From Candidatus Komeilibacteria bacterium RIFOXYD1_FULL_37_29 (GTDB lineage Bacteria > Patescibacteriota > Patescibacteriia > UBA1558 > GWA2-36-10), in assembly GCA_001818495.1 (NCBI GenBank), contig MHKS01000005.1, positions 466,584-530,583 of the forward strand: a stretch of 64,000 bases of DNA. Reading direction: 5' to 3'. The notes under the pieces were generated by a model, which worked only from the letters and a program-made list of their open reading frames with translations, made no database searches and was not told the origin of the DNA. The position numbers and the translations under genes are program-made. The stretch's first letter is position 1. Each line of letters opens with the position of its first letter. Below are positions 3,801-30,345 of the stretch, one piece after another.

Positions 3801-5639
3801 GCTGGCGCTTTGCTTGAGGATTTCATTTCGCAAAGATCCTTGTATTCTTTGCATACCCATATAGACCGCTCCGGCGATGGCGTCAGAATAAGCTGCTCCG
3901 GCAATAGAACCAGAAACAAAGCCCTTACCTAGAGCTTGCATCAGACTGTCGGGAGGATTTTTGCCAAATAATTTGGCAACATAAGATTTTTCATAAGCGC
4001 TTTTTCCCTTATTATCAATTTCGGCAAATTTTTCTTGGGCTACTACATCACCTAAGATAACATTCATTTCTCTAGAAACCATCAACTCGGCCTGAATAGC
4101 CAGTTTATTAATGTCCGCTTCGCTTAAGTCGGATGCTCCTTTTAGTTGTTTTAAGGCTTCTTCTATTTGATAAGCAGCATATTCTTCCAGAGCGTTATTA
4201 GCAGTTAATGATTTGATTAACTCCTGTCTGTCTTTGATATCTTCAGCTTGATATTTCTGGTCACTATTTTTTTTAGTATTTTCGGTAAGTACCAACAAAC
4301 TACAGATATGATCAATTTTAGCTCTTTTTTCATCGCTATTTTCACCGCTAAAAATATTTTCTATTTTTTCGTCATCAAACCTTAATCTATAAGCCAAATT
4401 TTTTTGAGTACCCATGCTTTCCTGTCGCTGTTTTTCAAATTTGAGCAGGGCATCCATATCATTTTTTAGCTGTTCAAAAAGACCGTTGGTATCTAAACCA
4501 TCTTTAGACATTTTTTCAGCCTGAGTAGCCAATTTTTTGAGACTTTGGGCGTTTAGTTTTTCAAAACCACGACTAGTCAGATAATTAAAACCAGATACTG
4601 CTGCACCAGTCAGTCCTCCGCCAGCTAATTTTAGGGCCAAAGCTGGTGCGCTGACAAATTTGAGGCCGGTCATGACAGCTCGATTGGCTAAAGCATAAGA
4701 ACCTCCACCCCAGACGCCTTTTAAGAGCTGACTACCCTCGGCTTTTAATTTATCTGTTTTAGAAGTATTGTTTTCTTTGGAGGCTGAGGCCTGTCGTATC
4801 TGATCTTGCATAACCACTTCGGCTTGCTGACAGAAATTTTCAAAGTATCTGTTTTTAAATTCCTCAGCATAAAGAGTATCCACGCCCATTTCCATGAGCA
4901 TGGTTTCATCAGTAATCATTTGAGCAAATTTTTCTTTTAGTTTTTTAATATCTTTTAAGTCATCAAAACTTAAGTTAGTAAAAAACTCATTAAATTTTTG
5001 GTTAGCGATTTGCTCTTGCTTGGCTTCCAAAATTGGTACTACTTCTTCAGAAATTGTCTCTGCTATAGCTAATGTTGGTTTGGGTGTCTCTACAGAAATT
5101 GGTTCTGGTTTGGGTGCTACCATTTCAGCGGTGTGGAGAGGGTTCGATTCTGCTTGAATAATCGGCTCAGGAGTTTTTGGTTTCTCGGATTTTTCTAGGC
5201 GTTCGGCTCGATTACTTTTGATTTCTGGAATCTCAGAATAGATAACCCTACTCTTTTCTTCAGCTGGCGCTCCAGAAAAAACAATTTCGCTAGTTACTTT
5301 CTTGGCACTTCTACCCCATTGATTTTTGGTGTTCTCTATAGCTGTACTTGCTTCGATAGCAACGTTTTCAGCAGAGCTACTAATATCTCTTAAAACAGCT
5401 GACTCGGCTGGAGTGGCTGCTGTTTTTATCTCTGATGGTGTATCCTTAAAATCAGCCACTTCATCTTCAATCATCGTAGTTGCTTCGTAGGCGCTAGTTT
5501 CTATTGGATCTAGCCTAGTTTCTCTAGCATTAGCTTTTAAAAGCTCTTCCATTCTTTCAGCTGATACTTCACCATATCTAGGATCTACTGACTGGCCTCC
5601 CCTAGAGCTCCTTTTATCTCCTTTGTTTCTTCTGTCCAT
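810..5639 (-). CDS. Giant 1609-aa acidic, K/E-rich coiled-coil protein with internal tandem repeats of about 100 aa. Function unknown; it may be a surface or adhesion protein.
   Basis: One uninterrupted ORF. Repeats include LGINTFENGLKAEDL...SPEAQTAKQALQHL and LGINAFDGGLDETEL...SQAAQALLEQL. Gly-rich amphipathic stretches such as GGGSYALANRAVMTGLKFVSAPALALKLAGGGLTGAAVSGF are present. No enzymatic motif is seen. Confidence 0.6.
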   Translation of the reverse strand: MDRRNKGDKRSSRGGQSVDPRYGEVSAERMEELLKANARETRLDPIETSAYEATTMIEDEVADFKDTPSEIKTAATPAESAVLRDISSSAENVAIEASTAIENTKNQWGRSAKKVTSEIVFSGAPAEEKSRVIYSEIPEIKSNRAERLEKSEKPKTPEPIIQAESNPLHTAEMVAPKPEPISVETPKPTLAIAETISEEVVPILEAKQEQIANQKFNEFFTNLSFDDLKDIKKLKEKFAQMITDETMLMEMGVDTLYAEEFKNRYFENFCQQAEVVMQDQIRQASASKENNTSKTDKLKAEGSQLLKGVWGGGSYALANRAVMTGLKFVSAPALALKLAGGGLTGAAVSGFNYLTSRGFEKLNAQSLKKLATQAEKMSKDGLDTNGLFEQLKNDMDALLKFEKQRQESMGTQKNLAYRLRFDDEKIENIFSGENSDEKRAKIDHICSLLVLTENTKKNSDQKYQAEDIKDRQELIKSLTANNALEEYAAYQIEEALKQLKGASDLSEADINKLAIQAELMVSREMNVILGDVVAQEKFAEIDNKGKSAYEKSYVAKLFGKNPPDSLMQALGKGFVSGSIAGAAYSDAIAGAVYMGMQRIQGSLRNEILKQSASEVKTTKDILSDFNNFALTNENIDQARGLISEARARIKLPDIKEAERAKIELQIQNLQNKMISEAKNITAEKNETVDTKKMAKSIVSQREKEIAQAADIATKERARKSFRGLWKTFAQLSNKEKFRTLGRAGLEGTKGAIAGAIGGELVNASSTALSGEDYNINQGLDNIYNRVILNTADTITSKDNTEIPNGDTANIEEKAEVPVDTTKAPALENSDSTLSEQKGILEQMQEVLAKQKQAANSGFKYSLQDDFDIEEMAVDTKDFIGPQKQDSLFPDTLANDSSLVEQKTQINEIAQALQSGDTIKADTLIKDSTLDSTTVDSLKNLVAVNEKLGINTFENGLKAEDLDKIICELDNDPKSPEAQTAKQALQHLLKNGSLSLEQYQETIKQHLGQELQLGNVELAKNAIGNSGIDIKTINEAVGRVELEKNLGINAFDGGLDETELKIISDQIHGGEKSQAAQALLEQLHKDGLITDQQKFSIEHPTVVKAGFKEEAGDEKDVKYKLSLELGKDAAPKHLEQVFYRLGIDNIDLDKGEVTNVEAARILNIGANLRVLSEGHDIAGITGEEFQKYVNIEGNKITITDYEGFQENVIAKLADHATEIIMAENVANTGAVAYIDNIKNETWGDMLSAEGVKDENIKFDQEQIQKAEGRVFQDNLEKSNLGELATEVNFSDEESGSFTLENQTITVENNQVVKIGDNILEEPLYLQDKESGEKLIDKVSETKATEFLSLVEKNQEAMMARLNEQLDNQSLQKIEIPESLLPKPEYDISTELNTALNKLGFDDAESRKEWNDLKKESLSELLHGKTEETIEDKDDAIKMHTREHMREFLEQAVRNDEIKVDDGMTVERAMKDLMVKETREKLMYDIAVAEQKVKSVQELEQIGKKGSETLRDQLKEGAESQKETISKQSDMSAGKLYENFLDEKLPTEEQLDKMSVDDLEKIKGRLEIFNYILKQNPPDDVEVADLDKAKKVIGENEAILEKINKRLDNTK

Positions 5640-17748: not shown

Positions 17749-19440
17749 TTAAAATTTTACAATTTCTCCTGGGTTTAATTTTTTTCCGTTATTTTTTGGC
17801 TGAACATTTTCAGATGATTGGGATTTTGTTTTCGCCATTGGCGGTTCTTTGGTGATTACTTTACGTCCTTTTAAAGCTTCGGCCAAAGAAGTAAATTCTT
17901 CTTCTCGACCATCATCAGATATTATTTTAATACTGGATGGTGGCGGTACTTTACCAGCTCTAGACAAATCTAAACATTCCCGACAATAGATTGGTTTGGT
18001 GGGATCTGGATCAAAATTTATCTTAGTTTTTTTACCACAAAGATCACAAACAGCGTCATGGCTAATACCTGTTTCTTTTTTCTTCCTATTTTTCTGGTCA
18101 GAATTATTTTTGCCAGTGAGAGTAGCCGTGGCTTTAGTTTTATTGGTCTCTTCCACACCACGATTTTCTGACCAACGAATAATTTTGTCCTCAATCACTT
18201 CTCGTGGCCGGGCGTATCTTTCTCTGGTCACAGAGATTATTTTATCTTTGGTGTCCAAATTTTCTTCAGCTAGTGACACCGGCGGCAGAGTCCGTGCAGA
18301 AAAAGCCTCGGAAGTAACTCCGTCAATCATTAATTTTATATAAATTTCAAATTTAGACAAATTAACCAGATCTTCTTGCGTAAAAGTTGGAAAAAATTCT
18401 TTTTCCAAAAACTCGGCATCAGCCGCCCCAACTCTAAAAACAACCAAGGTGCCGACATTACCAAAGACAGCGGCTTGGACATTTTCCTCTACCTGCTCAA
18501 TATACTGATGGGCAATGATTAGATTTAAACGGTATTTTCTGGCTTCAGATAGAATATTCGCAAAAGATTCTGTGGCAAAATTTTGAAATTCATCGACATA
18601 GAGATAAAAATCTTTTCTTTCTTCTTCTGGTGTATCCACTCTACTCATGGCGGCCAGTTGAATCTTGGTAATCATCATAGCCCCCAAAAGAGCCGAATTG
18701 TCTTCTCCGACGCGTCCTTTAGAAAGATTCAAGAGCAATATTTTCTGGCTATCCATGATGTCACGCATAGAAAAAGATGATCTAACCTGACCTAAGATAT
18801 TTCTAATTAGGGCTGAGGAAAGAAAACGACCGACTTTATTTTGAATCGGAGCAATGGCTTCAGCCTGGAATCTATCTGGATATTTACTATATTCTTCTAA
18901 CCAAAAAGCTTTGACCACTGGATCAGATAATTTTTCTACTACTTTTTTTCTAAAAGCTTTATCGGTCAACATACGCATAATGCCCAGTAAAGTAGAGCCA
19001 GGATACTCTAGTAGCGCTGAAATAGCATGATGGAGCACATATTCTAGTCTTGGTCCCCAAGAATCTGCCCAAATTTTTTGGAAGACTCCAATTAGACCAG
19101 AAACTACCAAATGTCTTTGTCCAGCATCGACTTGTTCCAAAACATTAAAACCAATTGGAAAATCCAAATCAGCCGGATTAAAATATATCACATCATTAAT
19201 GCGATGTTTTGGTACAAAATTTATGACCTTTTCCACTAGGTCACCATGCGGATCAACTACACAAACTCCTTTACCGTCTTGGATATCTTGAATAATCATA
19301 TTTTCCAAGACAGTAGATTTGCCCATACCAGTTTTACCAATAAAATACATGTGGCGACGGCGGTCGTCAGTTTTTATCCCAAACTTAACATTGGAATTTC
19401 TAAAGTTTGTTTCAGCAAAAATTGTAATGCGGTTATCCAT
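17749..19440 (-). CDS. VirB4/VirD4 (FtsK-HerA) superfamily P-loop ATPase. This is the stand-alone ATPase half of a split module and carries a C-terminal Zn-ribbon tail.
   Basis: Walker A is HMYFIGKTGMGKST, followed by VVDPHGDL. Walker B is FYLYVDEFQ. The C-terminus has CDLCGKK...CREC. It is a paralog of the C-terminal half of 32753-35206. Confidence 0.75.
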   Translation of the reverse strand: MDNRITIFAETNFRNSNVKFGIKTDDRRRHMYFIGKTGMGKSTVLENMIIQDIQDGKGVCVVDPHGDLVEKVINFVPKHRINDVIYFNPADLDFPIGFNVLEQVDAGQRHLVVSGLIGVFQKIWADSWGPRLEYVLHHAISALLEYPGSTLLGIMRMLTDKAFRKKVVEKLSDPVVKAFWLEEYSKYPDRFQAEAIAPIQNKVGRFLSSALIRNILGQVRSSFSMRDIMDSQKILLLNLSKGRVGEDNSALLGAMMITKIQLAAMSRVDTPEEERKDFYLYVDEFQNFATESFANILSEARKYRLNLIIAHQYIEQVEENVQAAVFGNVGTLVVFRVGAADAEFLEKEFFPTFTQEDLVNLSKFEIYIKLMIDGVTSEAFSARTLPPVSLAEENLDTKDKIISVTRERYARPREVIEDKIIRWSENRGVEETNKTKATATLTGKNNSDQKNRKKKETGISHDAVCDLCGKKTKINFDPDPTKPIYCRECLDLSRAGKVPPPSSIKIISDDGREEEFTSLAEALKGRKVITKEPPMAKTKSQSSENVQPKNNGKKLNPGEIVKF

Positions 19441-19442
19441 AT

Positions 19443-20933
19443 TTAAGCAGTTGGTAAATTAGGTGGGGCTTGGTTTTTATTTTTTGGCTTGGGCATGGTA
19501 TGAGCACCTTTTTTGGCGAAGCGTTCTTCAAAATGTTTGTTGGCCAAATCTACACTAAAACTAGGAGCCAGTAATTGCTTTCTAAGGTCCTCGGTGATTT
19601 GGCCCTTGTCTAAATCCATGCCTCTGGAAACAGGTAAAGAAAATGGTGGCTCAGATTTTTTACTTTCAGTCCGTTGTAGTAATGGTGCTTTAACAAATTT
19701 ACTTGGGAAGTGCCAAACAGTCGCCAATTCTTCTGTGTTTAAAATATAATACCCATGCCCTCTAGTGCCACTACGAGCCTTATAACCACGCATTAAGTTT
19801 ATTCTGCGCATAGCTACTCTGCTCTTAATGAAGAAATAATCAATCTTAGTCTTAGTTTTTTTATCTGGTTTAAAGGAATTTAAATCCATAGTGTTAAATT
19901 GTTTGATAGAACCAAAAACAGAAGAAATAACTCGAGAAGCGGAATACTTATCATTGGGCGAGATATAAATCAAACGCATTTTACACTCAAAACCGGTTTT
20001 GCCAGTTTTTCTCTCAATGGCCTCAATGGCTCCTTTCTCGCCAGGGGTTAAATGAAGCATCATAGACGGCAAAACATCTTTTTTACCGCTAGAAGTTCCC
20101 CCCTTTAAATCTTGTGGCCAAATCATCGGTTCACCGGTGGATAGAAAAAATAAACTAGTCATTGGGTCAATCAGTCTATTAAGCCATCCCTTTTTATCGG
20201 AAAACTTTTTACCAGCTATTTTATAAACCTCTCTTAAACCCCTTTTAGGCCAGTCAAAACCAGTTGGTCTTACTATAATTTGAATCCACACCTGTTCCCC
20301 AACTTGAATCTTACTCATGGTTTCGAGTAGTGATGATATGGGGTCTTTAAATTCTCCGGAAACATTGTCTTCAAATTCTGTATAAGTCCGAATAGGATAA
20401 ACATCTTTTTTATCCAAGATAACTTCGGTACCCCAAATATTATGAGTATCATTGGGATAATCATCCGGCACAGCCCCCACATAATCCTCTACTTCGGTAA
20501 TTTCAGCATCAGGATATTGTGAATAAATAGAACTTTCTATTAAATCACGATATTGGCTAGGGGTACGAATTAAAAATTGGACATAACCATCAATGCTGAC
20601 AATTTCAAAAGAGAAGCTAAGCTGAAAACGACCCTCTACATATATTTCTCTTAAATTAAGCGGATCATGCGCTCCAGAAATAGTAGAGAAAAGCTGTTCT
20701 ACGGCCTTAGGTGTTTGTTCGGTGTCTTTGGGGACATCAATGGCTAAAATCACGAATTTATTGGTATTAAACCATTTAATACTCTGCTTCATATGCCAAA
20801 TAGCAAAAAAACCCCGGACAATGATATAAAAATATATAATCCAGCCACCGTTTTTAAAAAAATACCAAGCTATGGCTCCGAAGCCTTGATTCATAGCCGC
20901 GTACAATGATGATAAATCTAAAGTTATTTCCAT
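19443..20933 (-). CDS. Membrane-anchored protein homologous to the N-terminal domain of the fused ATPase at 32753-35206. It is the N-terminal half of the split module.
   Basis: One N-terminal TM helix. FSFEIVSIDGYVQFLIRTPSQYRDLIESSIYSQYP aligns with FSAEIVSDGGFINFYIATPTNYRDFLIQQLQAVYP in the fused paralog. The gap to the ATPase gene is 2 nt. Confidence 0.6.
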   Translation of the reverse strand: MEITLDLSSLYAAMNQGFGAIAWYFFKNGGWIIYFYIIVRGFFAIWHMKQSIKWFNTNKFVILAIDVPKDTEQTPKAVEQLFSTISGAHDPLNLREIYVEGRFQLSFSFEIVSIDGYVQFLIRTPSQYRDLIESSIYSQYPDAEITEVEDYVGAVPDDYPNDTHNIWGTEVILDKKDVYPIRTYTEFEDNVSGEFKDPISSLLETMSKIQVGEQVWIQIIVRPTGFDWPKRGLREVYKIAGKKFSDKKGWLNRLIDPMTSLFFLSTGEPMIWPQDLKGGTSSGKKDVLPSMMLHLTPGEKGAIEAIERKTGKTGFECKMRLIYISPNDKYSASRVISSVFGSIKQFNTMDLNSFKPDKKTKTKIDYFFIKSRVAMRRINLMRGYKARSGTRGHGYYILNTEELATVWHFPSKFVKAPLLQRTESKKSEPPFSLPVSRGMDLDKGQITEDLRKQLLAPSFSVDLANKHFEERFAKKGAHTMPKPKNKNQAPPNLPTA

Positions 20934-21049: not shown

Positions 21050-22153
21050 TTATTCAGTTTTTAATGAATATCTGCCTTTTTCGTCCTTAGTAAAACGGTC
21101 TTTATTCATCAAAGCTAGAGTAATGGTAGTTTCTTTAATTAAACGTTTTTCTAATACGGCCTTGATGATTTCTTTCTTGGTTAACGGTTTGTCACTTTCT
21201 TTCAAAATATCAGCAATCACATCAGCCACTACGCCTGGCTTATAACCCCATTCTTTTAGAGCATAAATACCGCGACCAACCAAAACATATTTTTCATCCA
21301 AGATTAATTCGTTGTGAATAGTAGCTGGATAAGCCTGACGATGATCAAAAGCCATTTCATTTATAGTCTTGGCAATTTCCGTAAAATGCATCGGTTTGTC
21401 ATTTTTCTTGAGTACCAAATAGATCTTGTCATTCATACGACGAGGTGTAATATTTGCCCACTCAATCAATCCCCACTCATCATAAGGATTAGATTTTAAT
21501 TTTTTAGTAACTGTAATGAAGTTTACTACTACTTTATCAGTCAAATCATCATTTTGTTTGTAAAAATCAGTTTCTTTGATTTTATTCATTAATTCTTCCA
21601 AAATAAGCGCTTGACCATGGTTATCAATTAATTCACAAATATTACCAACGGTTTCATGAAATAAATCTACTTTAGCTTCCGGCGTTTTCCAAAATCCACT
21701 ATGCTGTTTTGATTCTTTAACAAAGTAAAAACGATGATTTAATAGTTGGTTTAAAATAAATCTAATAGCTGCTTTATTTTCTTCGGAAGTTCCGGGGATA
21801 GATAAAAGCTCATTGGTCAAATTGTCTTCAGACATCAAACCACCATGCTCGGAAAGAGTAGTGTTGGCGATCTCTTCAATCTCTTTTAAGATGGTCTGAT
21901 TGAAATTTTTGTTGATCTTCTTAAGAGAAGTATTTTCAATTTGTCTAATTCTTTCTCTGGTGACATTGTATTTTTTACCAATATCTTCTAGGGTTTTTTT
22001 CTCAGAACCAGACAAACCGTGACGCATTTTTATAATTTCTTGCTCACGTTCTGATAAAGCCGTCAAAATATTAACCAAAGTTTGATGGGGATCAAAATCA
22101 GAAAGTTTTGACAAATGTTTTGATGTAATGACTTGGTCTAAAATTCCAGACAT
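21050..22153 (-). CDS. Protein with an N-terminal sigma-70 region-4 HTH and an uncharacterised C-terminal domain of about 270 aa.
   Basis: LSEREQEIIKMRHGL...KTLEDIGKKYNVTRERIRQIENTSLKKI matches sigma-70 region 4.2. I recognise no sigma region 2 or 3. Confidence 0.55.
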   Translation of the reverse strand: MSGILDQVITSKHLSKLSDFDPHQTLVNILTALSEREQEIIKMRHGLSGSEKKTLEDIGKKYNVTRERIRQIENTSLKKINKNFNQTILKEIEEIANTTLSEHGGLMSEDNLTNELLSIPGTSEENKAAIRFILNQLLNHRFYFVKESKQHSGFWKTPEAKVDLFHETVGNICELIDNHGQALILEELMNKIKETDFYKQNDDLTDKVVVNFITVTKKLKSNPYDEWGLIEWANITPRRMNDKIYLVLKKNDKPMHFTEIAKTINEMAFDHRQAYPATIHNELILDEKYVLVGRGIYALKEWGYKPGVVADVIADILKESDKPLTKKEIIKAVLEKRLIKETTITLALMNKDRFTKDEKGRYSLKTE

Positions 22154-22296: not shown

Positions 22297-23202
22297 TTAT
22301 TCCTTTTTCTTGTTCCAAATTACCAAAAGTGGTGAAGCTAAAAAAATGGAAGAATAAGTACCGACAATAACGCCCAGTATAAGTGCTAAAGCAAAGTTTT
22401 GGATGCTCTTTCCCCCAAAAAAATAGACTGCCAAGAGGGCTAGCAAGGTCGTAAAAGAGGTATTAATGGATCTAATGATTGTTTGATTGATACTATTATT
22501 GACAATTTCCTTAAAATCTTGGTCTTGATTTCTAAACAGATTTTCCCTGATTCTGTCAAATGTGACAATAGTATCATGAACAGAAAACCCTAATATAGTA
22601 AGCAAAGCCGTCACAAAAAGTATATCTACTTCTACATTCATAAAATGCCCTAAAATAGAAAATACACCAATCACTAATAAAATATCATGAACCAAAGCAA
22701 CAATAGCAGCTAGACCGTACTTCCAAGAAGCCACTGGCTTAGAAACCTTACGAAAAGCATAAGCAATATATAAAATAATAAAAATCAATACTATAACTAT
22801 GGCCTGTAAAGCTTTGGTTTTCAATTCTTGTCCAATAATGGGTCCAACGGCTTCAAAGCGTAATTCTGATAAAGTATTATCATCAACACCGGCTATTTCT
22901 ATGGCTTCCAAGCTGGTTAATATATTTTGATGGGTAGTTTCCTCTATTTCTTCAAAACGTAAAATATAATCTTTTTCTCCACTTGGTTGCAACCTAACAT
23001 TGGCCAAATCTAAGCCGGTTAAAGCTTCTTGAACAGCAATCATAGTTGGTCGCTCTTTGGAATAAGACACTTCTAAAATACTACCACCGGTAAAATCAAT
23101 ACCAAATTTTAGTCCCCATATAAACAATGAAACTATAGCCATCAAAACCAAAAGTCCAGATGAAATAAACCAAATTTTTCTTTGTCCAATAACATTCAAC
23201 AT
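22297..23202 (-). CDS. secF: Protein-export membrane protein SecF.
   Basis: FGIDFTGGSILEV is the SecF signature. The protein has six TM helices and is 301 aa long. Confidence 0.9.
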   Translation of the reverse strand: MLNVIGQRKIWFISSGLLVLMAIVSLFIWGLKFGIDFTGGSILEVSYSKERPTMIAVQEALTGLDLANVRLQPSGEKDYILRFEEIEETTHQNILTSLEAIEIAGVDDNTLSELRFEAVGPIIGQELKTKALQAIVIVLIFIILYIAYAFRKVSKPVASWKYGLAAIVALVHDILLVIGVFSILGHFMNVEVDILFVTALLTILGFSVHDTIVTFDRIRENLFRNQDQDFKEIVNNSINQTIIRSINTSFTTLLALLAVYFFGGKSIQNFALALILGVIVGTYSSIFLASPLLVIWNKKKE

Positions 23203-23206
23203 AATT

Positions 23207-24877
23207 TTATTCTTTTACATTAACTCTTTTTACTCCAAATAAGGCCAATTTGCCTTCTAATTTTTTGTTTACTATTATTCTCAAAAATGTTCTAGTGACA
23301 GTAATAGCAGAAAACATGGATACCAGGATACCAATGCCCAAAGTAATAGCAAAACCTTTGATAATAGAAGTACCAAACCAAGCCAAAATTATACAAGTAA
23401 TAATTGAAGAGATGTTTGAATCTTTAATAGATGGCCAAGCTCTGGTAAAGCCATTTTCTATGGCGGTATTTAGGCTTTTACCTTCGCGCAATTCTTCTTT
23501 GGTACGCTCAAAAATGAGAACATTGGCATCTACCGCCATACCAATAGACAATATAAATCCAGCTACACCAGCCAAAGTCATAGTAACAGGAATAATCTCA
23601 AAAATCGCCAAGGTTAAAGCAGCATAAATAGCCAGAGCAACAACTGCTAAAAGCCCTGGCAACCTATAGAAAATTAACATAAACAAAGCGGCAGCAATAA
23701 AGCCAATTATACCAGCCAAAAGGCTTTGACCAAGAGATTCTTCTCCTAGACTAGCCCCGACTGTACTTTGGCTAATCAGTTCAATTGGCACTGGCAAAGC
23801 ACCTAAATTAAGATTTTTTACCAATTCTTTGGCTTCCAAAATACTAAAATTACCAGTAATTTGTGCTTGTCCATCTTTAATTGGTTCATTTACTACTGGA
23901 CTAGAAATCAATACTCCATCTAAAAATATAGCAATAGGCTTACCGACATTGTCTGTAGTCAACTCTCCAAAAAGATCACGACCCTTATCATTAAAGGATA
24001 ACAATACTAAAGGGGCCTGAGTATTTTGCTCAAAAGAAAGTTGAGCTTTAGCTATATCGCGACCACTTAAACCGGATTCTTCCCAAATAATATTTTCTAA
24101 ATCCGCATCTGTTTTTTGAAAAAGAATATGGGCTGAGTGTACTTCCAATTCTCCCTGATCATTCAATTTTTGATCTATTCTCTTTATAATATGATAGCCA
24201 AATTGTGATTCAATCAGCTCTTTAGAAATCTGTCCATCTTTTAAATCTTCAAAAATAGCTTTATCAAATTCCGGAACAAACAGTCCTTTTGTTACATAAC
24301 CCAAATCTCCGCCATTTATAGCTGATCCTGGGTCTTCACTATATTCTTTAGCTAAAGTAGAAAAATCTTCTCCCAGCAAAGCTCTATCCAAAACTTTCTG
24401 AGCATTAGCTTTTATTTCATTTTGCGCTTCGGTCACATTTTGCTCAGAAAGTTTTGCCTCTCCCTGTGTTTTAAATTCCAAATGAGGAGTCTTATCAATA
24501 ATAGCTATAGCTTCGTTGGCATCTTTAATTCCGGCTAATTCTACAATAATGCGATAATTATCACCACTAAAATTGGTCTGTACTACTGGCTCGGAAACAC
24601 CATAAGCGTTAACTCGTCTTTCAATAACATCTCGCAAAGCTTCCACGCCATCTCTTTTCTCTAATCCTTCTAAAGCTGAGACATCGGCTTGGTAGACCAA
24701 ATGTGTTCCTCCCTGAAGATCCAGACCCAAATGAACTTTAAACTTTCCAAACCAGCCGGGAGCGCTTGGCCAGACAATCAAACCGGCAAAAATAGCCAAC
24801 AAAAAAATCGCTAAAAATACGCTTCTAACTCTGGTGCTTGTCACTTGTTTATGTGATGTTTCGCTGTATTTATTCAT
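23207..24877 (-). CDS. secD: Protein-export membrane protein SecD carrying a parvulin-type PPIase domain inserted in its periplasmic P1 region.
   Basis: LGLDLQGGTHLVYQ is SecD and the C-terminal TM bundle is present. An embedded GEDFSTLAKEYSEDPGSAINGGDLGYVTKGLFVPEFDKAIFEDLKDGQISKELIESQFGYHIIK is a parvulin signature. Confidence 0.88.
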   Translation of the reverse strand: MNKYSETSHKQVTSTRVRSVFLAIFLLAIFAGLIVWPSAPGWFGKFKVHLGLDLQGGTHLVYQADVSALEGLEKRDGVEALRDVIERRVNAYGVSEPVVQTNFSGDNYRIIVELAGIKDANEAIAIIDKTPHLEFKTQGEAKLSEQNVTEAQNEIKANAQKVLDRALLGEDFSTLAKEYSEDPGSAINGGDLGYVTKGLFVPEFDKAIFEDLKDGQISKELIESQFGYHIIKRIDQKLNDQGELEVHSAHILFQKTDADLENIIWEESGLSGRDIAKAQLSFEQNTQAPLVLLSFNDKGRDLFGELTTDNVGKPIAIFLDGVLISSPVVNEPIKDGQAQITGNFSILEAKELVKNLNLGALPVPIELISQSTVGASLGEESLGQSLLAGIIGFIAAALFMLIFYRLPGLLAVVALAIYAALTLAIFEIIPVTMTLAGVAGFILSIGMAVDANVLIFERTKEELREGKSLNTAIENGFTRAWPSIKDSNISSIITCIILAWFGTSIIKGFAITLGIGILVSMFSAITVTRTFLRIIVNKKLEGKLALFGVKRVNVKE

Positions 24878-24935: not shown

Positions 24936-25829
24936 TTATCGCCGAATGATTGACTTAATCCAAATATCCAATAAATTGGCAAAATCCTCTCTCCCTGCTC
25001 TGATAGACTTTGGTAGTAATGAATTGTTAGTCATACCGGGGATAGTATTGATTTCTAAAAAATATATCTGACTACCAGCTACTATAAAATCCGTTCGACT
25101 AATATGCCGAGCACCCAAGGCTTGATGCATTTTCACAGCTTGAAACTGGAGCTTTTTAGCTAGAGAGCTACTAATCTCCGCTGGACATATTTCATCTACC
25201 AATTTATCATCATACTTGCTTTCATAGTCAAAAAATTTATTTTTAGAACGAATTTCTATCACTGGCAAGGCAAAAGTTTTATTATTTTTATCTATTACCG
25301 GTACTGTTAGCTCTTGACCTTTAATATATTTTTCTATGAGTACCTTATCGCTGTATTTAAGAGCTTGTTTTAAAGCCTGATCAAGCTCTTTTTGCGAATG
25401 GGCTATAGCCACGCCGATGGAGCTACCGCCAGCTAATGGTTTTATTACTAGAGGACTTTTAAATGGTATTTTTTCAAATTTATCCAAAACAATATCTGGT
25501 GCTACCAACAAGCCAATTTTTTTAGCCAGTTGCTTACTCAAATATTTATTCATTCCGACTGCTTGCGCTTCCACATCAGAAAAAATAAAAGGTATTTTTA
25601 AGGTATTTAAAAATCCCTGGATTAAGCCATCCTCCCCGCCTGGACCATGGAAAACCGGTACAACGGCCTGATATTTATGATACTGGGCTAAAAATTTATC
25701 CAGGTCGGCTGGAAAATCAAAAATATCAACCGAGTATTTTTTGGGTAGAGACGAAACTACATTTTTACTAGAAGCTAAAGCTACCTCTCGTTCTGAACTT
25801 TCTCCCCCAGTTAAAATAGCGATTTTCAT
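24936..25829 (-). CDS. ddl: D-alanine--D-alanine ligase.
   Basis: MKIAILTGGESSEREVAL...EINTIPGMT is the ATP-grasp Ddl pattern. Length is 297 aa. Confidence 0.88.
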   Translation of the reverse strand: MKIAILTGGESSEREVALASSKNVVSSLPKKYSVDIFDFPADLDKFLAQYHKYQAVVPVFHGPGGEDGLIQGFLNTLKIPFIFSDVEAQAVGMNKYLSKQLAKKIGLLVAPDIVLDKFEKIPFKSPLVIKPLAGGSSIGVAIAHSQKELDQALKQALKYSDKVLIEKYIKGQELTVPVIDKNNKTFALPVIEIRSKNKFFDYESKYDDKLVDEICPAEISSSLAKKLQFQAVKMHQALGARHISRTDFIVAGSQIYFLEINTIPGMTNNSLLPKSIRAGREDFANLLDIWIKSIIRR

Positions 25830-26638: not shown

Positions 26639-28717
26639 TTAGAGGTCTAATTCATTAACTTTTTCCCAAGTATTTTCGTCTAAAACAGCCATATAATCAT
26701 TGGCCAATATATACAAATAATCATTTATATAAACGGCTCTTTTTGCATCTGGTAAGCTAACAGCTTTGACCAGCTCGATCTGATCGTTGGCGTAAGAAAA
26801 GATATAACCACCACTGTAAGAAGGCAAGAAAAATACCTGATGTTTTTCATCTTGCAAGAAAGCATGATGATTATAAAGAGCTTCACTACCATATTCACTC
26901 AAAGAATATTTGCTAATTTCTTTAGGATTACTAGCATCAGCCACATCGAAATAAGAAAGTTTTACATTACCATTTTCCATACCAATACCTAATATTTTAT
27001 TTTCCTTAATTGGATGAAGATATGATGAATAGCCGGGTATCTTGAGTTCCCCCACCATTTTTGGATTTTTTGGATCAGCCAAATTAAGCACATAGAAAGG
27101 ATCAGTTTGTCTAAAGGTAACCAAATACCCCAAATCACCAATGAACCTAGCTGAATAAATACGCTCGCCCACCCCTAAATTTAAAACAGAACCAATAGTA
27201 TTTAAATTTTGATCTAAGACATAAACATCATTGGCCTGTGAATCACTGCCACTCGGTGCCCAGCCCCAAATATCACCAATAGTAGTAGCTACTCGGAGAT
27301 TGCCTTGGTACTCATCCATAGAAAATTGATTTAGAAGATAACCGGGCACAGAACCGCTGGCCGATATTTTCAAATCATTAATATTTATTTTGGCAATACC
27401 GGTGCTAAGAAGGGATCTTTTATTTTTTTCATAATAATTTTCGGCCTTGTTTTGCATGTCATTTTCAAATTTGAGCATGGCATCGTCATCCAAAGAACCC
27501 ATCCACTCATTCATTATAGTTTGTAGTTCACTAAATTTGGACTGACTACTGATGTCATAATCATCTAATTTATTTATTCTAGCCAATAAATCACCAGGAA
27601 TTAGAGTTTTTAGTTCACTATTTATAAAACCAAACATAAAATCAAACATGTCCAAATTTTTGGTATAAGCTACATATAAAGCGTTTTGAGACATGTAAAT
27701 GTTGGCTGTGCCCTGATTGCCAACAAAAGAAATCTTATTATCAATATCGCCAGATTGAGGGTCTAAACTAACGACACTAAAGGTAGAATCCACTTGAATG
27801 GGACTGTTGGGGTGATATATTTCACCGCAGGGAATGGCTAAAACCTGACCAGATTTTAACAATGGACTGATCGGACAGGGATTATAGCGATTTAAATAAG
27901 TTTGAGTAATTAAATAAACTTTATCATTGTATAATCTAGAATTGAGTAAATAAGTATCATCATCTAAATCAATAGTCCATTTTTCTGTAGGTTGTTTTGG
28001 ATTAGAGACATCGTAGGCGACAATTTTTCTATCAGAGAAAACCAATAAAACCTTATCCGCCAAAAGCAAATCTCCAGCCAATTTTATTTCTGAGCTCAAA
28101 GCTAAATCCGTTGGTGGCCAAGCGCCAATCACATTAGTTTTGACATCATTAACATAGCGAGGAGCTATGGAATCAGTTGAATCCATCATAATATCTATTG
28201 GCATTGGTTCTTCTAACCAATAACCACCGCTATTATCAGAAAAATAAATTTGTTGACCATCTGTTTTTAATATATCTGGCTCGTCTATACCAACCACCTG
28301 GACATTGGTACCAGAAAATCTATCCGCTGATCCACTACCCATGCCCGACGGTGCTTCTTTGACAGTATCAGACTCGCCTAAAGGTAAAGAACCATCACCC
28401 AAATTATCAATAGCCATTTGTGGAGTGGCTGTATTTCTAGTTAAACCAATAGAATAATAGGCTCCATCCTCCATTTCTTCTATATATTTTTTAAACTCAT
28501 CAAGAGATTTAAATTTAGAAAATTCATTACTTTTATTTACTTGATATTTACCCGGAATAAGATTCAATGGTGGTTTATTAAAATTATTGGGGGTATCAAT
28601 AGTAGATATTATTAAAACTAGTGCTACGGCTGAAAATAATACCAAGGCTATTAAATAAATCGGAGTAAACCCCAATCTATTTTTAGTTATTTTTGTTTTT
28701 AGCTTTGTTTTTTGCAT
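26639..28717 (-). CDS. Secreted or membrane-anchored beta-propeller domain protein.
   Basis: N-terminal TM helix. The C-terminal region is repeat-rich and consistent with a beta-propeller. Length is 692 aa. Confidence 0.45.
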   Translation of the reverse strand: MQKTKLKTKITKNRLGFTPIYLIALVLFSAVALVLIISTIDTPNNFNKPPLNLIPGKYQVNKSNEFSKFKSLDEFKKYIEEMEDGAYYSIGLTRNTATPQMAIDNLGDGSLPLGESDTVKEAPSGMGSGSADRFSGTNVQVVGIDEPDILKTDGQQIYFSDNSGGYWLEEPMPIDIMMDSTDSIAPRYVNDVKTNVIGAWPPTDLALSSEIKLAGDLLLADKVLLVFSDRKIVAYDVSNPKQPTEKWTIDLDDDTYLLNSRLYNDKVYLITQTYLNRYNPCPISPLLKSGQVLAIPCGEIYHPNSPIQVDSTFSVVSLDPQSGDIDNKISFVGNQGTANIYMSQNALYVAYTKNLDMFDFMFGFINSELKTLIPGDLLARINKLDDYDISSQSKFSELQTIMNEWMGSLDDDAMLKFENDMQNKAENYYEKNKRSLLSTGIAKININDLKISASGSVPGYLLNQFSMDEYQGNLRVATTIGDIWGWAPSGSDSQANDVYVLDQNLNTIGSVLNLGVGERIYSARFIGDLGYLVTFRQTDPFYVLNLADPKNPKMVGELKIPGYSSYLHPIKENKILGIGMENGNVKLSYFDVADASNPKEISKYSLSEYGSEALYNHHAFLQDEKHQVFFLPSYSGGYIFSYANDQIELVKAVSLPDAKRAVYINDYLYILANDYMAVLDENTWEKVNELDL

Positions 28718-28759: not shown

Positions 28760-29461
28760 TCAATTTCCACCAAAACGACGCTGTCTCTTATTGTATTCTA
28801 AAATAGCTTTATCTAAATCTGCTTCCATAAATTCCGGCCAAGTCTTCTCTGGAAAATAGAGCTCGCTGTAAGTAGATTGCCAGGTTAAAAATCCCGACAA
28901 GCGCTCTTCCCCCGATGTACGGATAATCATATCTGGATCTGGTAGTCCAGCTGAGTCCAAATTTTGACTAATCAATTCCTGATCAATTTTATCAACGGTA
29001 ATTTTCTGAGCCACAATCTTTTTAAAAGCTCTCACTAGCTCATCACGACCACCATAACTAAGACAAATATTTAAGATGCCTCGCTGACCATTCTTAGTTT
29101 TCTCGCGGGCTTTTTTAATAGACTTTTGTAAGTCATGCTCAAAATCTTCCAGTCGGCCAAAAAAATTTACTTTGATACCCCGTTTAGACAATTTGTTTAT
29201 TTCTTTATTAACCAAAATTCTAAACAAATCCATCAAATAGGCTACTTCTTTTTTTTCTCTATTCCAATTTTCTGTTGAAAAAGCATAAACAGTTAAAATA
29301 TCTACACCTTTATCAAAAATATATTCAGCCGTTTTTTTAAGATTTTCAAAACCTAAACGATGTCCCTCAAAGGCTGGCAAACCTTTAGCTTTGGCAAAAC
29401 GGCGATTGCCGTCTAATATTATACCAATGTGTCTAGGAGTTTCCATAAAATTATTATACAT
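28760..29461 (-). CDS. uppS: Undecaprenyl diphosphate synthase.
   Basis: HIGIILDGNRRFAK and the RTSGEERLS motif are present. Length is 233 aa. Confidence 0.9.
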   Translation of the reverse strand: MYNNFMETPRHIGIILDGNRRFAKAKGLPAFEGHRLGFENLKKTAEYIFDKGVDILTVYAFSTENWNREKKEVAYLMDLFRILVNKEINKLSKRGIKVNFFGRLEDFEHDLQKSIKKAREKTKNGQRGILNICLSYGGRDELVRAFKKIVAQKITVDKIDQELISQNLDSAGLPDPDMIIRTSGEERLSGFLTWQSTYSELYFPEKTWPEFMEADLDKAILEYNKRQRRFGGN

Positions 29462-29512: not shown

Positions 29513-29887
29513 TTATCCAACAACAGTTTGTGCGTATAATTCACTCAATACAAATCTAGATACAGCATAAGCTACTAGTATGATAACCAAACCAACTACG
29601 CCAGCACCAATAAGCTTTTTAGCTTCATCAACCTTATCACTACTGCCATAAGAAGTCATCCATTTGAAACCACCAAAAAGAATAATCAAGGTAGTGAGGA
29701 TGCCTAAGAAACCCAAGATGATATTAACTACACCACCAATGGTGTCTCGAAGCGATCTTGATCCTAAGGCAATATCAGTGTTGGAGAAATCATTAAATCC
29801 CCAGTCATCTAAAGTAGTTTGAGCGTTAGCTGCTGCTGGAGCTAACAACAAAAGAAAAGTTAGTATTTTCTTCATAGAATTATGCAT
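29513..29887 (-). CDS. VirB2/TrbC-like pilin candidate with a Sec signal peptide and two hydrophobic helices. It is a paralog of the upstream gene.
   Basis: MKKILTFLLLLAPAAANA-QT is followed by two TM helices separated by a short polar loop. It is roughly 65% identical to the upstream protein. Confidence 0.5.
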   Translation of the reverse strand: MHNSMKKILTFLLLLAPAAANAQTTLDDWGFNDFSNTDIALGSRSLRDTIGGVVNIILGFLGILTTLIILFGGFKWMTSYGSSDKVDEAKKLIGAGVVGLVIILVAYAVSRFVLSELYAQTVVG

Positions 29888-29932: not shown

Positions 29933-30289
29933 CTAAAATGTTTCGCTGTAAAGCTCACTAAGCACAAATCTGGAAATAGCATAAGCCGTTAAAACAATGA
30001 TTAAACCAATTGCTCCAGCTATGACCACGCCTTTACCTTTTTCACTTTTTTCGGCATTACCACCAGATGTCATCATATTAAATCCTCCCCACAAAATAGC
30101 GACTGTTGTTAATATGCCTAAAAAACCCAAAATGATATTAACTACACCACCAATGGTGTCTCGAAGCGATCTTGATCCTAAGGCTACTTCGGCATCTGTA
30201 AAATCATTATACCCCCAATCGTCTAAGGCGGTCTGAGCATTAGCCATTATTGGTGCTAAAAGTAGTGCAAAGGCTAATATCTTTTTCAT
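29933..30289 (-). CDS. VirB2/TrbC-like pilin candidate with a signal peptide and two hydrophobic helices.
   Basis: MKKILAFALLLAPIMANA-QT is followed by DDWGYNDF, then VVNIILGFLGILTTVAILWGGF, a loop, then VVIAGAIGLIIVLTAYAISRFVL. The ORF-track start at 30325 lies upstream of the predicted TSS, so the Met at 30289 is used instead. Confidence 0.5.
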   Translation of the reverse strand: MKKILAFALLLAPIMANAQTALDDWGYNDFTDAEVALGSRSLRDTIGGVVNIILGFLGILTTVAILWGGFNMMTSGGNAEKSEKGKGVVIAGAIGLIIVLTAYAISRFVLSELYSETF

Positions 30290-30316
30290 AAATAACTTAT
30301 TTTTATTAATACCTAT

Positions 30317-30345
30317 ATTATACACTAATTTTGGATATTTGTAAA
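30317..30345 (-). promoter_or_regulatory. Strong sigma70-type promoter for the pilin-like gene pair: TTTACA, a 17-nt spacer, then TATAAT.
   Basis: The minus strand reads TTTACA-AATATCCAAAATTAGTG-TATAAT. Confidence 0.6.

What the first reader, a model, noticed from the sequence alone, without database searches (positions are those of the whole stretch)
24119..24415. SecD carries an embedded parvulin-type peptidyl-prolyl isomerase domain in its periplasmic P1 region
Within SecD, residues about 155-235 read GEDFSTLAKEYSEDPGSAINGGDLGYVTKGLFVPEFDKAIFEDLKDGQISKELIESQFGYHIIK. This is the near-canonical PpiC/PrsA/SurA parvulin signature (S.D.GS...GGDLG.......F..A.F.L..G.IS..V.S.FGYHIIK). A SAHILF motif follows at residues 248-253 instead of preceding, which suggests a permuted or partially duplicated domain. 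A foldase domain built into the translocon-associated SecDF head would couple substrate release to prolyl isomerisation. I am not aware of this being a described SecD architecture.
Basis: partly seen in the sequence, partly recalled or inferred. Interest (0 to 1): 0.6.

Follow-up and report, generated by a model that had tools for sequence, protein, structure and literature searches.

The report
SecD carrying a permuted parvulin domain
In this candidate-phyla-radiation bacterium, the membrane protein SecD, which helps pull secreted proteins out of the export channel, has a complete prolyl-isomerase (parvulin) folding domain built into its outer moving part with its first strand moved to the end; the design is common in this bacterial group but appears not to have been described.

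Summary
secD (23207-24877, minus strand, 556 aa; secF follows 4 nt downstream) encodes a normal SecD with a parvulin domain between the P1 base and P1 head (Rotamase_3 E=5e-24, Rotamase E=9e-23). The finding's coordinates are residues 155-253.

The domain is circularly permuted. The profiles lack β1 at the N-terminal side, and the β1 motif (SAHILF) follows β4 as a hairpin. Moving that strand to the front in silico restores a full-length profile match. AlphaFold2 folds the insert as one compact domain (pLDDT 85, pTM 0.74) whose core superposes on PrsA at 1.4 Å.

The active-site residues are invariant or nearly so in 69 homologs: D182, H229, H250 and S/T224, plus the proline pocket L192/F200/F204.

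The standard P1 head is retained, so the parvulin decorates it and replaces only a roughly 30-36-residue variable linker.

The architecture is widespread in Patescibacteria. All 120 best homologs have it, as do at least 49 clusters at 50% identity. Some lineages carry two parvulins, probably nested. No paper describing it was found.

The most likely role is a built-in PrsA-like foldase or chaperone acting on chains leaving SecYEG. That role is inferred, not shown.

The parts
23207..24877 (-). secD gene, 556 aa, with the embedded parvulin
   Evidence: ORF. TIGR01129 secD scores 395.9 bits (cut-off 244.4). Pfam finds SecD_1st, SecDF_P1_head, SecD_SecF_C and Sec_GG. It is 100% identical to the SecD of Candidatus Komeilibacteria bacterium RIFOXYC1_FULL. 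The model matches SecDF crystal structures 5xan/3aqp at E about 1e-25.
22297..23202 (-). secF gene, 301 aa, starting 4 nt after the secD stop codon (same operon)
   Evidence: PF02355 E=4.9e-60 and Sec_GG. The junction and the DRIRE motif were checked.
24773..24838 (-). SecD TM1 (residues 14-35), which places everything up to about residue 372 outside the cytoplasmic membrane
   Evidence: Helix 14-35 in the AF2 model. The alignment to T. thermophilus SecDF starts at TM1.
24467..24643 (-). N-terminal part of the P1 base (residues 79-137); its last strand HLEFKTQ (132-138) leads into the insert
   Evidence: PF21760 SecD_1st E=2e-17. Strand 132-138.
24071..24448 (-). Inserted segment relative to SecDF without a parvulin (residues 144-269, 126 aa). 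It stands in place of 36 residues in T. thermophilus SecDF and about 30 in D. radiodurans SecDF.
   Evidence: The HMMER alignments to 3aqp and 5xam break at query 143/270 and 138/271.
24437..24463 (-). Flexible linker 1 (residues 139-147) between the base strand and parvulin helix alpha1
   Evidence: pLDDT below 50 for residues 142-148. These columns are variable and gap-rich in the family.
24164..24436 (-). Parvulin core, alpha1 to beta4 (residues 148-238). It contains S180-E181-D182, GGDLG 189-193, the pocket residues L192/F200/F204, S224 and H229.
   Evidence: Pfam Rotamase and Rotamase_3. Secondary structure. Foldseek finds 6xd8 PrsA at rmsd 1.4 A over 80 columns with TM 0.77.
24116..24148 (-). 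Permuted beta1 strand (residues 244-254, LEVHSAHILFQ) carrying the invariant H250. It pairs as a hairpin with beta4.
   Evidence: Strand 244-254 with pLDDT about 90 in both models. H250 is present in 69/69 sequences and E245 in 69/69. The strand aligns to beta1 of SurA's second parvulin.
24086..24115 (-). Linker 2 (residues 255-264) from the permuted strand to the P1 head; W265 follows and is nearly invariant
   Evidence: pLDDT below 50 for residues 259-262. W265 is present in 68/69 sequences.
23789..24082 (-). Standard P1 head subdomain (residues 266-363), retained
   Evidence: PF22599 SecDF_P1_head E=4.3e-29, profile positions 17-114 of 114. It aligns to T. thermophilus SecDF from residue 160 onward.
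23273..23755 (-). SecD TM2-TM6 (residues 375-535), including the invariant D450 in the motif AVDANV
   Evidence: PF02355. Helices. D450 is invariant and aligns with AVDGNV of T. thermophilus SecDF.

Best explanation
secD here encodes a working SecD, the proton-driven partner of the SecYEG export channel, whose outer P1 domain carries an extra, separately folded parvulin-type prolyl isomerase. The domain sits between the last strand of the P1 base and the start of the P1 head and is joined by two short flexible linkers. It is circularly permuted: the chain enters at helix alpha1, runs through to beta4, then turns back as a hairpin to supply the strand that is normally beta1, and leaves into the head. 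The new chain ends lie at the beta1/alpha1 loop beside the active-site cleft. The active site is intact. The most likely function is a built-in PrsA-like foldase/chaperone that acts on unfolded chains as they leave SecYEG and are handled by the swinging P1 head. This would give 1:1 stoichiometry and obligatory co-localisation of translocation and folding in small-genome, probably single-membrane bacteria.

Shown here: the architecture, the fold, the permutation (at sequence and predicted-structure level), residue conservation and distribution.

Inferred: enzymatic activity, the substrates, and coupling to head movement.
For: Architecture: Pfam and NCBIfam. The insertion point comes from alignments to solved SecDF structures.

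Fold: the insert-only AF2 model has pLDDT 85 and pTM 0.74. It matches PrsA 6xd8 at rmsd 1.4 A (TM 0.77, 49% identity) and the archaeal parvulin 2rqs at 1.7 A.

Permutation: the profile matches start at position 26/116 and 6/97. The trailing EVHSAHILF aligns to a parvulin beta1 (SurA EVHARHILL). Moving it to the front raises PF13616 from 88.6-89.2 to 96.4 bits with coverage 15-116, and PF00639 to 1-97/97. Strand 244-254 is a confident hairpin partner of beta4.

Active site: the Pin1 equivalents are H59=H250 and H157=H229 (both 69/69), T152=S224 (58 S, 11 T), the S111-x-C113 motif = S180-E-D182 (S and D invariant), and the pocket L122/M130/F134 = L192/F200/F204 (at least 64/69 each). 27 of 30 single-parvulin SecD loci from species-representative genomes keep both histidines.

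Selection: all 120 best homologs down to 57% identity carry the combination. At least 49 of the 150 best 50%-identity representatives are SecD-parvulin fusions. About 37 of the 80 loci returned from species-representative genomes are as well.

Plausibility: separate parvulin chaperones are known to dock on the Sec machinery. Examples are PpiD/YfgM (PMC9643414), SurA with the holotranslocon (PMC9987972), and the PrsA-like Mdp proteins on the M. pneumoniae Sec translocon, which includes SecDF (10.1101/2025.04.25.650208 and 10.1101/2024.09.05.611430).

SecD itself looks functional: secF is adjacent and D450 is invariant.
Against: No activity or substrate data exist. Conserved parvulin residues do not guarantee catalysis, and in some parvulin chaperones (SurA, PpiD) the chaperone role does not need isomerase activity (established knowledge).

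Some lineages keep a parvulin in the same place with both histidines lost: L036 and the first domain of the tandem forms. So at least part of the selected function is non-catalytic.

The orientation of the parvulin relative to the head is not defined: the full-length pTM is 0.49 and the linkers have low confidence.

I could not inspect model coordinates. Placing the trailing strand in the canonical beta1 slot therefore rests on DSSP, pLDDT, hairpin geometry and my recollection of the parvulin sheet order (beta2-beta1-beta4-beta3).
Confidence: 0.65

Rival explanations
1. The parvulin is mainly a non-catalytic substrate-binding (holdase) module that enlarges the preprotein-binding surface of the P1 head. 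Prolyl isomerisation would be dispensable, as for the parvulin domains of SurA and PpiD.
For: Variants with both histidines lost are retained at the same site: L036 and domain 1 of about 25 tandem-type SecDs. The closest structural and sequence relatives that align through the trailing strand are SurA-like chaperones (8hm3/8hm4, SurA).
Against: In the window's own clade every catalytic and pocket residue is invariant or nearly so over 69 sequences down to 56% identity. That degree of conservation is not expected for a purely structural binding module. In the tandem forms one of the two domains always keeps the full residue set.
Confidence: 0.22
2. The parvulin acts in cis on SecDF itself or on another translocon subunit, for example by isomerising a proline that gates the F-form/I-form swing of the P1 head. 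It would then be a regulator of the motor rather than a foldase for clients.
For: It is inserted exactly at the base/head junction, the region that moves (PMC8669966). Both tethers leave the domain next to the active-site cleft (inference from the permutation point).
Against: No conserved candidate proline switch was identified. SecDF proteins without any parvulin perform the same swing (crystal structures 3aqp, 5xan, 5yhf). Known parvulins at the Sec machinery act on clients.
Confidence: 0.05
3. The fusion is an artefact: an assembly chimera, a frameshift, or a gene-calling error joining a prsA-like gene to secD.
For: None was found. I considered it only because the source is a metagenome-assembled genome.
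Against: The parvulin is in frame inside the P1 domain, with SecD sequence on both sides in one uninterrupted ORF. The same architecture occurs in hundreds of independent assemblies from NCBI, JGI, ENA and Logan. The exact protein is seen on 11 contigs.
Confidence: 0.01

Closest known systems
Canonical SecDF (T. thermophilus 3AQP/5YHF, D. radiodurans 5XAN, E. coli SecD/SecF)
   Same: TM1-P1-TM2-6 topology, P1 base and P1 head, the Sec_GG motif, the conserved membrane Asp (D450 here), an adjacent SecF, and RND-superfamily fold.
   Different: Those proteins have a 30-36-residue variable segment where this SecD has a 126-residue segment containing a whole parvulin domain. None of the solved SecDF structures has an enzymatic domain in P1.
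PrsA of Gram-positive bacteria (B. subtilis, B. anthracis 6XD8/6VJ4, L. monocytogenes 5HTF)
   Same: A parvulin domain of the non-phospho-specific type on the outer face of the cytoplasmic membrane of a (probably) single-membrane cell. It is the best single-domain structural match (rmsd 1.4 A, 49% identity). The proposed role in folding secreted proteins is the same.
   Different: PrsA is a separate lipoprotein dimer whose parvulin is inserted in canonical strand order into an N/C chaperone domain. Here there is no N/C chaperone domain, the anchor is SecD itself, and the strand order is permuted. The NCBIfam PrsA models score far below their cut-offs (62.9 against 361).
E. coli SurA and SurA-like Bacteroides PPIase (1M5Y; 8HM3/8HM4)
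   Same: Highest sequence scores (E=2e-21). The insert is collinear with 'parvulin-1 core + linker + beta1 of parvulin-2', with similar spacing. SurA has been reported to contact the Sec holotranslocon (PMC9987972).
   Different: SurA is a soluble periplasmic chaperone with canonical-order parvulins. In the SecD insert the strand after beta4 is predicted to fold back onto the same domain rather than start a second one. The SurA NCBIfam model scores below its cut-off (54.4 against 394).
PpiD/YfgM at SecYEG (E. coli) and the Mdp444/436/489 'dome' on the M. pneumoniae Sec translocon
   Same: Membrane-held parvulin-containing chaperones positioned at the exit of the Sec channel. In Mycoplasma the PrsA-like proteins cross-link to and sit over SecDF (PMC9643414).
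   Different: Those are non-covalent partners encoded by separate genes, and PpiD's parvulin is catalytically inactive (established knowledge). Here the partnership is hard-wired into one polypeptide.

Membership tests
SecD (protein translocase subunit SecD, TIGR01129) | Whole-protein match to the SecD equivalog-domain model above its curated cut-off | tested here: met
   TIGR01129 scores 395.9 bits against a cut-off of 244.4, covering residues 50-532 and the full model 1-397.
SecD (protein translocase subunit SecD, TIGR01129) | TM1, then a large outer P1 domain (base + head), then TM2-6 | tested here: met
   Pfam finds SecD_1st, SecDF_P1_head and SecD_SecF_C. The AF2 model has helices 14-35 and 375-535. 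Foldseek top hits are SecDF 5xan/3aqp/5yhf.
SecD (protein translocase subunit SecD, TIGR01129) | Partner SecF encoded next to it (or fused) | tested here: met
   secF (22297-23202) starts 4 nt after the secD stop codon; PF02355 E=4.9e-60.
SecD (protein translocase subunit SecD, TIGR01129) | Conserved membrane-embedded Asp of the proton path (T. thermophilus D340 / E. coli SecD D519) | tested here: met
   D450 in AVDANV aligns with AVDGNV of 3aqp and is invariant in 69 homologs. The residue numbers in the reference proteins come from PMC8669966 and from memory.
SecD (protein translocase subunit SecD, TIGR01129) | PMF-dependent stimulation of protein export | not testable with these tools
   Needs genetics or biochemistry.
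Parvulin-type PPIase (PpiC/Rotamase; PF00639, PF13616) | Profile match above the gathering threshold | tested here: met
   PF13616 scores 85.4 bits (cut-off 22.5) and PF00639 81.5 bits (cut-off 21.7).
Parvulin-type PPIase (PpiC/Rotamase; PF00639, PF13616) | Parvulin fold (four-stranded antiparallel sheet packed by four helices) | tested here: met
   The insert-only AF2 model (pLDDT 85, pTM 0.74) superposes on PrsA 6xd8 at rmsd 1.4 A over 80 columns (TM 0.77) and on CsPin 2rqs at 1.7 A.
Parvulin-type PPIase (PpiC/Rotamase; PF00639, PF13616) | Catalytic network (Pin1 H59, C113/Asp, T152, H157) and hydrophobic proline pocket (L122, M130, F134) | tested here: met
   H250, D182, S224 and H229 correspond to the network, and L192, F200 and F204 to the pocket. 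All are invariant or at least 64/69 conserved. The Pin1 sequence was taken from memory and checked for self-consistency against known residue numbers.
Parvulin-type PPIase (PpiC/Rotamase; PF00639, PF13616) | Canonical order of elements: beta1 first, then alpha1-3, beta2, alpha4, beta3, beta4 | tested here: not met
   beta1 follows beta4. The profile matches lack the N-terminal positions, the strand is at 244-254, and de-permutation restores the full-length match. The fold is the same, but the connectivity is a circular permutation.
Parvulin-type PPIase (PpiC/Rotamase; PF00639, PF13616) | Measured cis/trans isomerase activity | not testable with these tools
   Needs an enzyme assay.
PrsA foldase lipoprotein | Match to PrsA equivalog models; N- and C-terminal chaperone (SurA-N-like) domain flanking the parvulin; lipoprotein signal | tested here: not met
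   NF002846 scores 62.9 bits against a cut-off of 361, and NF002827 scores 54.3 against 343. Both cover only the parvulin part. The flanks are SecD P1 base and head. It may work like PrsA but is not a member.
SurA | Match to the SurA equivalog model; N-terminal chaperone domain plus two parvulins, soluble periplasmic | tested here: not met
   NF008038 scores 54.4 bits against a cut-off of 394 and covers the parvulin only.

The most novel reading that the evidence does not exclude
This may be a naturally hard-wired translocation-folding machine. The proton-driven swing of the SecD P1 head would physically carry a catalytically active, circularly permuted parvulin between the SecY exit and the outside. 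Pulling a chain out of the channel and isomerising its prolines would then be steps of one PMF-powered cycle. The fusion would act as a 'Rosetta stone', implying that the non-covalent PpiD/SurA/PrsA-Sec contacts in model bacteria reflect a direct SecD-head-to-parvulin hand-over. The permuted parvulin, and the nested double-parvulin variants, would be the first natural circular permutation described for this fold.
Probability: 0.3. Interest if true: 0.75.

Novelty: new variant of a known kind. Interest (0 to 1): 0.6.

Why it matters
How proteins are handed from the Sec channel to folding factors on the far side of the membrane is an open question. Contacts between SecYEG/SecDF and PpiD, SurA or PrsA-like proteins have only recently been mapped, and their meaning is debated.

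A conserved, widespread covalent fusion of a catalytically intact parvulin to the moving head of SecD is independent evolutionary evidence that these two activities belong together. It also offers a compact one-polypeptide system, plus SecF, for structural and biochemical study.

It adds to the picture of how genome-reduced Patescibacteria economise on envelope biogenesis. It also provides a natural example of circular permutation, and apparently of domain nesting, in the parvulin fold. Finally, database annotation ('SecD') currently hides the feature.

Tried and rejected
- **Full-length fold search:** this returned only SecDF and RND hits in the top 50, so a separate insert-only model was needed.
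- **Representative search counts:** the figures from the junction profile (617 at E<=1e-30) are inflated by proteins with several parvulins. I used a local classification of the top 150 instead, which gives only a lower bound.
- **Cluster names:** The listing of cluster members gave almost no names for divergent representatives.
- **Regex motif scan:** my first scan of the loci missed many motifs and was replaced by an HMM alignment.
- **Active-site shorthand:** I first equated D191 of GGDLG with Pin1 C113, which was wrong. The equivalent is D182 of the S-E-D motif. A plain pairwise alignment puts the one-residue loop gap arbitrarily, so this assignment follows the S-x-[C/D] convention also used in 10.1101/2024.09.05.611430.
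- **MAG titles:** several records suggested Gammaproteobacteria, Bdellovibrionales, Lysobacteraceae or Bathyarchaeia. I rejected these as evidence for occurrence outside Patescibacteria, because their SecD membrane domains are 63-93% identical to CPR-labelled ones and, for example, the 'Lysobacteraceae' locus has 30% GC.
- **Primary SecDF papers:** Tsukazaki 2011 and the MD paper are not in the library, so head and hinge residue ranges come from alignments and a review.
- **NJ tree of parvulin cores:** the tree is too weakly supported to decide the order of evolutionary events.
- **Second parvulin:** none was found in the 64 kb window, but that says nothing about the rest of the genome.
Full report
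**What is there**

The finding lies inside a 556-aa ORF on the minus strand (23207-24877). This ORF is followed 4 nt downstream by a 301-aa ORF (22297-23202). The first is SecD: TIGR01129 scores 395.9 bits against a cut-off of 244.4, and Pfam finds Sec_GG, SecD_1st at 79-137, SecDF_P1_head at 266-363 and SecD_SecF_C at 365-535. The second is SecF (PF02355, E=4.9e-60).

The protein is 100% identical to the SecD of Candidatus Komeilibacteria bacterium RIFOXYC1_FULL, a member of the candidate phyla radiation (Patescibacteria). The window has 36% GC. The finding's coordinates 24119-24415 are exactly residues 155-253. The quoted motifs are present as described.

**Is it a parvulin?**

Yes. Rotamase_3 (PF13616) hits residues 145-237 at E=5.4e-24, and Rotamase (PF00639) hits 143-234 at E=8.8e-23. 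Both are far above their cut-offs and lie between the P1-base and P1-head matches. PDB sequence searches return SurA, PrsA, Par10, Par14 and Pin1 parvulin domains, with a best E of 2e-21.

An AlphaFold2 model of the insert alone (31-sequence alignment) has pLDDT 85 and pTM 0.74. Its core superposes on B. anthracis PrsA (6xd8) at rmsd 1.4 Å over 80 columns (TM 0.77, 49% identity) and on an archaeal parvulin (2rqs) at 1.7 Å.

**Where exactly, and does it replace or decorate the head?**

Alignments to solved SecDF proteins break at query 143/270 (T. thermophilus residues 123/160) and at 138/271 (D. radiodurans 129/160). So 126 residues stand where those proteins have 30-36.

The P1-head profile is matched from position 17 to 114 of 114. 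In the full-length model (pLDDT 79) the head and membrane domain are as in SecDF crystal structures (Foldseek E about 1e-25). The parvulin is therefore an added module at the base/head junction and replaces only a short variable connector. It is joined by two low-confidence, variable linkers (142-148 and 259-262). TM1 (residues 14-35) puts it on the outer side of the membrane.

**Circular permutation**

Both Rotamase matches begin inside the profile, at positions 26/116 and 6/97, so the N-terminal β1 strand is missing there. After β4 (FGYHIIK) comes a 5-residue turn and then LEVHSAHILFQ. This aligns residue for residue with the β1 strand of SurA's second parvulin (EVHARHILLK).

I ran a de-permutation test, placing residues 241-258 in front of the core in silico:

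| Construct | PF13616 bits | PF13616 profile | PF00639 bits | PF00639 profile |
|---|---|---|---|---|
| Native order | 89.2 | 26-116/116 | 85.3 | 6-97/97 |
| Strand removed | 88.6 | 28-116/116 | 84.8 | 11-97/97 |
| Strand moved to the front | 96.4 | 15-116/116 | 88.9 | 1-97/97 |

The gain is modest but goes in the predicted direction.

In both AF2 models the element order is α(148-167), α(172-179), α(183-186), β(191-196), α(202-211), β(222-224), β(227-238), β(244-254). The last strand has pLDDT around 90. It is connected to β4 by a tight turn, and β4's other neighbour is β3. So it must lie on the side of β4 where β1 lies in canonical parvulins. The canonical sheet order β2-β1-β4-β3, with the two conserved histidines on adjacent strands β1 and β4, is from my knowledge of the family. 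I could not inspect coordinates.

The new chain ends fall in the β1/α1 loop. In Pin1 that loop carries the phosphate-binding K63/R68/R69, which have no counterpart here. The domain is therefore of the non-phospho-specific PrsA/Par10/SurA kind.

**Active site**

I mapped the insert onto human Pin1. The Pin1 sequence was taken from memory and verified against eleven well-known residue numbers. Family counts come from 69 full-length homologs at 56-88% identity.

| Pin1 | SecD residue | Family (69 sequences) |
|---|---|---|
| H59 | H250 | 69 H |
| H157 | H229 | 69 H |
| T152 | S224 | 58 S, 11 T |
| S111-x-C113 | S180-E181-D182 | S and D invariant |
| L122 | L192 | 67 L |
| M130 | F200 | 64 F |
| F134 | F204 | 66 F |

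Among 30 single-parvulin SecD loci from species-representative genomes, 27 keep both histidines. This degree of conservation argues for a selected, probably catalytic, function.

**Distribution**

All 120 best database homologs carry the SecD plus Rotamase combination. Those that a source names at all are called only "SecD".

A scan of one genome per species with a junction-spanning profile returned 80 loci. About 30 encode SecD with one parvulin and 7 encode SecD with two. The rest are ordinary PrsA-, SurA- or PpiD-like proteins.

Named lineages with the fusion are Komeili-, Kerfeld-, Buchanan-, Magasanik-, Moran- and Nomurabacteria and the 'Parcubacteria/Patescibacteria group'. Several MAG records titled Gammaproteobacteria, Bdellovibrionales, Lysobacteraceae or Bathyarchaeia carry SecD membrane domains 63-93% identical to CPR-labelled ones. 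I treat those titles as unreliable.

In an exhaustive search of 1.84 billion 50%-identity representatives, at least 49 of the best 150 are SecD-parvulin fusions. I saw no instance outside Patescibacteria, but absence was not systematically tested.

**Variants seen elsewhere**

In about 25 sequences the P1 region reads, in order:

- core 1, whose β4 histidine is lost (GYNILK and similar);
- a β1 strand with histidine (xSHILIC);
- core 2, with an intact GGDLG and GYHLIYK;
- a trailing strand that usually lacks histidine (YQVSRILAR and similar);
- the P1 head.

One Magasanikbacteria SecD (L036) has only core 1 plus the His-less trailing strand.

The two histidines thus co-occur on the middle strand and core 2, and are jointly absent from core 1 and the trailing strand. 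This suggests that a complete canonical parvulin is nested in the β4-β1' hairpin loop of a degenerate permuted one.

The collinearity of the single insert with 'SurA parvulin-1 core + β1 of parvulin-2' is compatible with origin of the permutation by truncation of a tandem pair. The order of events is unresolved, because the tree is too weak.

**How it most likely works**

SecDF is thought to bind the emerging chain with its P1 head and to move it away from SecYEG by a PMF-coupled swing of about 100° (PMC8669966, PMC6028853). Separate parvulin chaperones are known at the same place:

- PpiD/YfgM on SecYEG (PMC9643414).
- SurA with the holotranslocon (PMC9987972).
- In wall-less, genome-reduced M. 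pneumoniae, PrsA-like Mdp proteins that form a dome over a Sec translocon including SecDF. Substrate density there contacts the catalytically intact parvulin of Mdp444 (10.1101/2025.04.25.650208, 10.1101/2024.09.05.611430).

The simplest reading is that Patescibacteria have fused this partner into SecD. A PrsA-like foldase/chaperone would then ride on, or next to, the moving head and meet every chain that SecD handles. I put this at about 0.65.

The main rival, at about 0.2, is a non-catalytic binding module. It is supported by the His-less variants and weakened by the strict conservation of the catalytic set in this clade. A cis-regulatory role is possible but has no support. An assembly artefact is excluded by recurrence in independent assemblies.

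**Known or new?**

Seven literature queries combined SecD or SecDF with parvulin, PpiC, rotamase, PPIase-domain fusion or peptidyl-prolyl plus Patescibacteria, or combined parvulin with circular permutation. None found a description of the architecture or of a permuted parvulin. A freshwater-CPR genomics paper lists SecD and PrsA as present in CPR without noting a fusion (PMC9166423).

The library covers open-access papers and bioRxiv only, and automatic domain annotation in public databases necessarily already shows both domains. I therefore rate it as a new variant of known kinds (SecD and parvulin foldases), not as categorically new.

**Verdict**

- Observation: confirmed.
- Structural interpretation: supported, and sharpened to a circular permutation that decorates rather than replaces the head.
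- Function: plausible but inferred.
- Interest: 0.6.

Noticed in passing
L030, L031, L033, L041, L042, L064, L078 (P1 regions, about residues 135-445 of the SecD ORFs); also P0121, P0127, P0136, P0137, P0142, P0149, P0158, P0182, P0233: SecD variants with two parvulin units in P1. The order is core 1 without the beta4 histidine, a His-bearing beta1 strand, an intact core 2, then a usually His-less trailing strand. This is probably a canonical parvulin nested inside a degenerate permuted one. L033 and P0233 are in addition SecD-SecF fusions (1030 and 1075 aa).
   Followed up: partly
L036 (Magasanikbacteria SecD, residues about 186-300): A single embedded parvulin that has lost both conserved histidines (GLNVLK and VARILVK) but keeps the permuted layout. 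This points to a retained non-catalytic role at this site.
   Followed up: partly
L001, L005, L009, L010, L012, L018, L020, L022, L024, L029, L030, L078: Species-representative MAG records titled Gammaproteobacteria, Bdellovibrionales, Lysobacteraceae or Bathyarchaeia carry CPR-type SecD-parvulin genes. For 10 of the 12, the SecD membrane domain is 63-93% identical to a CPR-labelled one; L012 and L030 gave no usable comparison. The 'Lysobacteraceae' locus has 30% GC. The record titles look unreliable.
   Followed up: partly
window 29513-29887 and 29933-30325 (-); 17749-19440 (-): Two adjacent paralogous small secreted proteins match T4SS_pilin (PF18895). A type IV secretion coupling protein (TrwB/TraG-like) with a C-terminal treble-clef zinc finger lies nearby. 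Together they suggest a type IV secretion or DNA-uptake apparatus in the neighbourhood.
   Followed up: no
window 21050-22153 (-): A 367-aa protein immediately downstream of secF combines an N-terminal Sigma-70 region 4 with a HARE-HTH domain. This is an unusual pairing for a sigma-like protein.
   Followed up: no
window 26639-28717 (-): A 692-aa membrane-anchored protein consists almost entirely of the PF09826 beta-propeller domain (E=4e-116). It lies between cell-wall genes: ddl at 24936-25829 and uppS at 28760-29461.
   Followed up: no
window 810-5639 (-) and 19443-20933 (-): A 1609-aa ORF that was not scanned against any family library, and a 496-aa ORF with no Pfam match, next to the T4SS coupling protein.
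   Followed up: no
L032, L034, L035, L039, L052 (Bacteroidota/Ignavibacteriota, 428-442 aa); PDB 8hm3/8hm4: SurA-like two-parvulin proteins are the closest non-SecD relatives that align through the trailing beta1 strand (about 50% identity; 114 Foldseek columns for 8hm3). They are candidates for the kind of ancestor from which the permuted insert was cut.
   Followed up: partly
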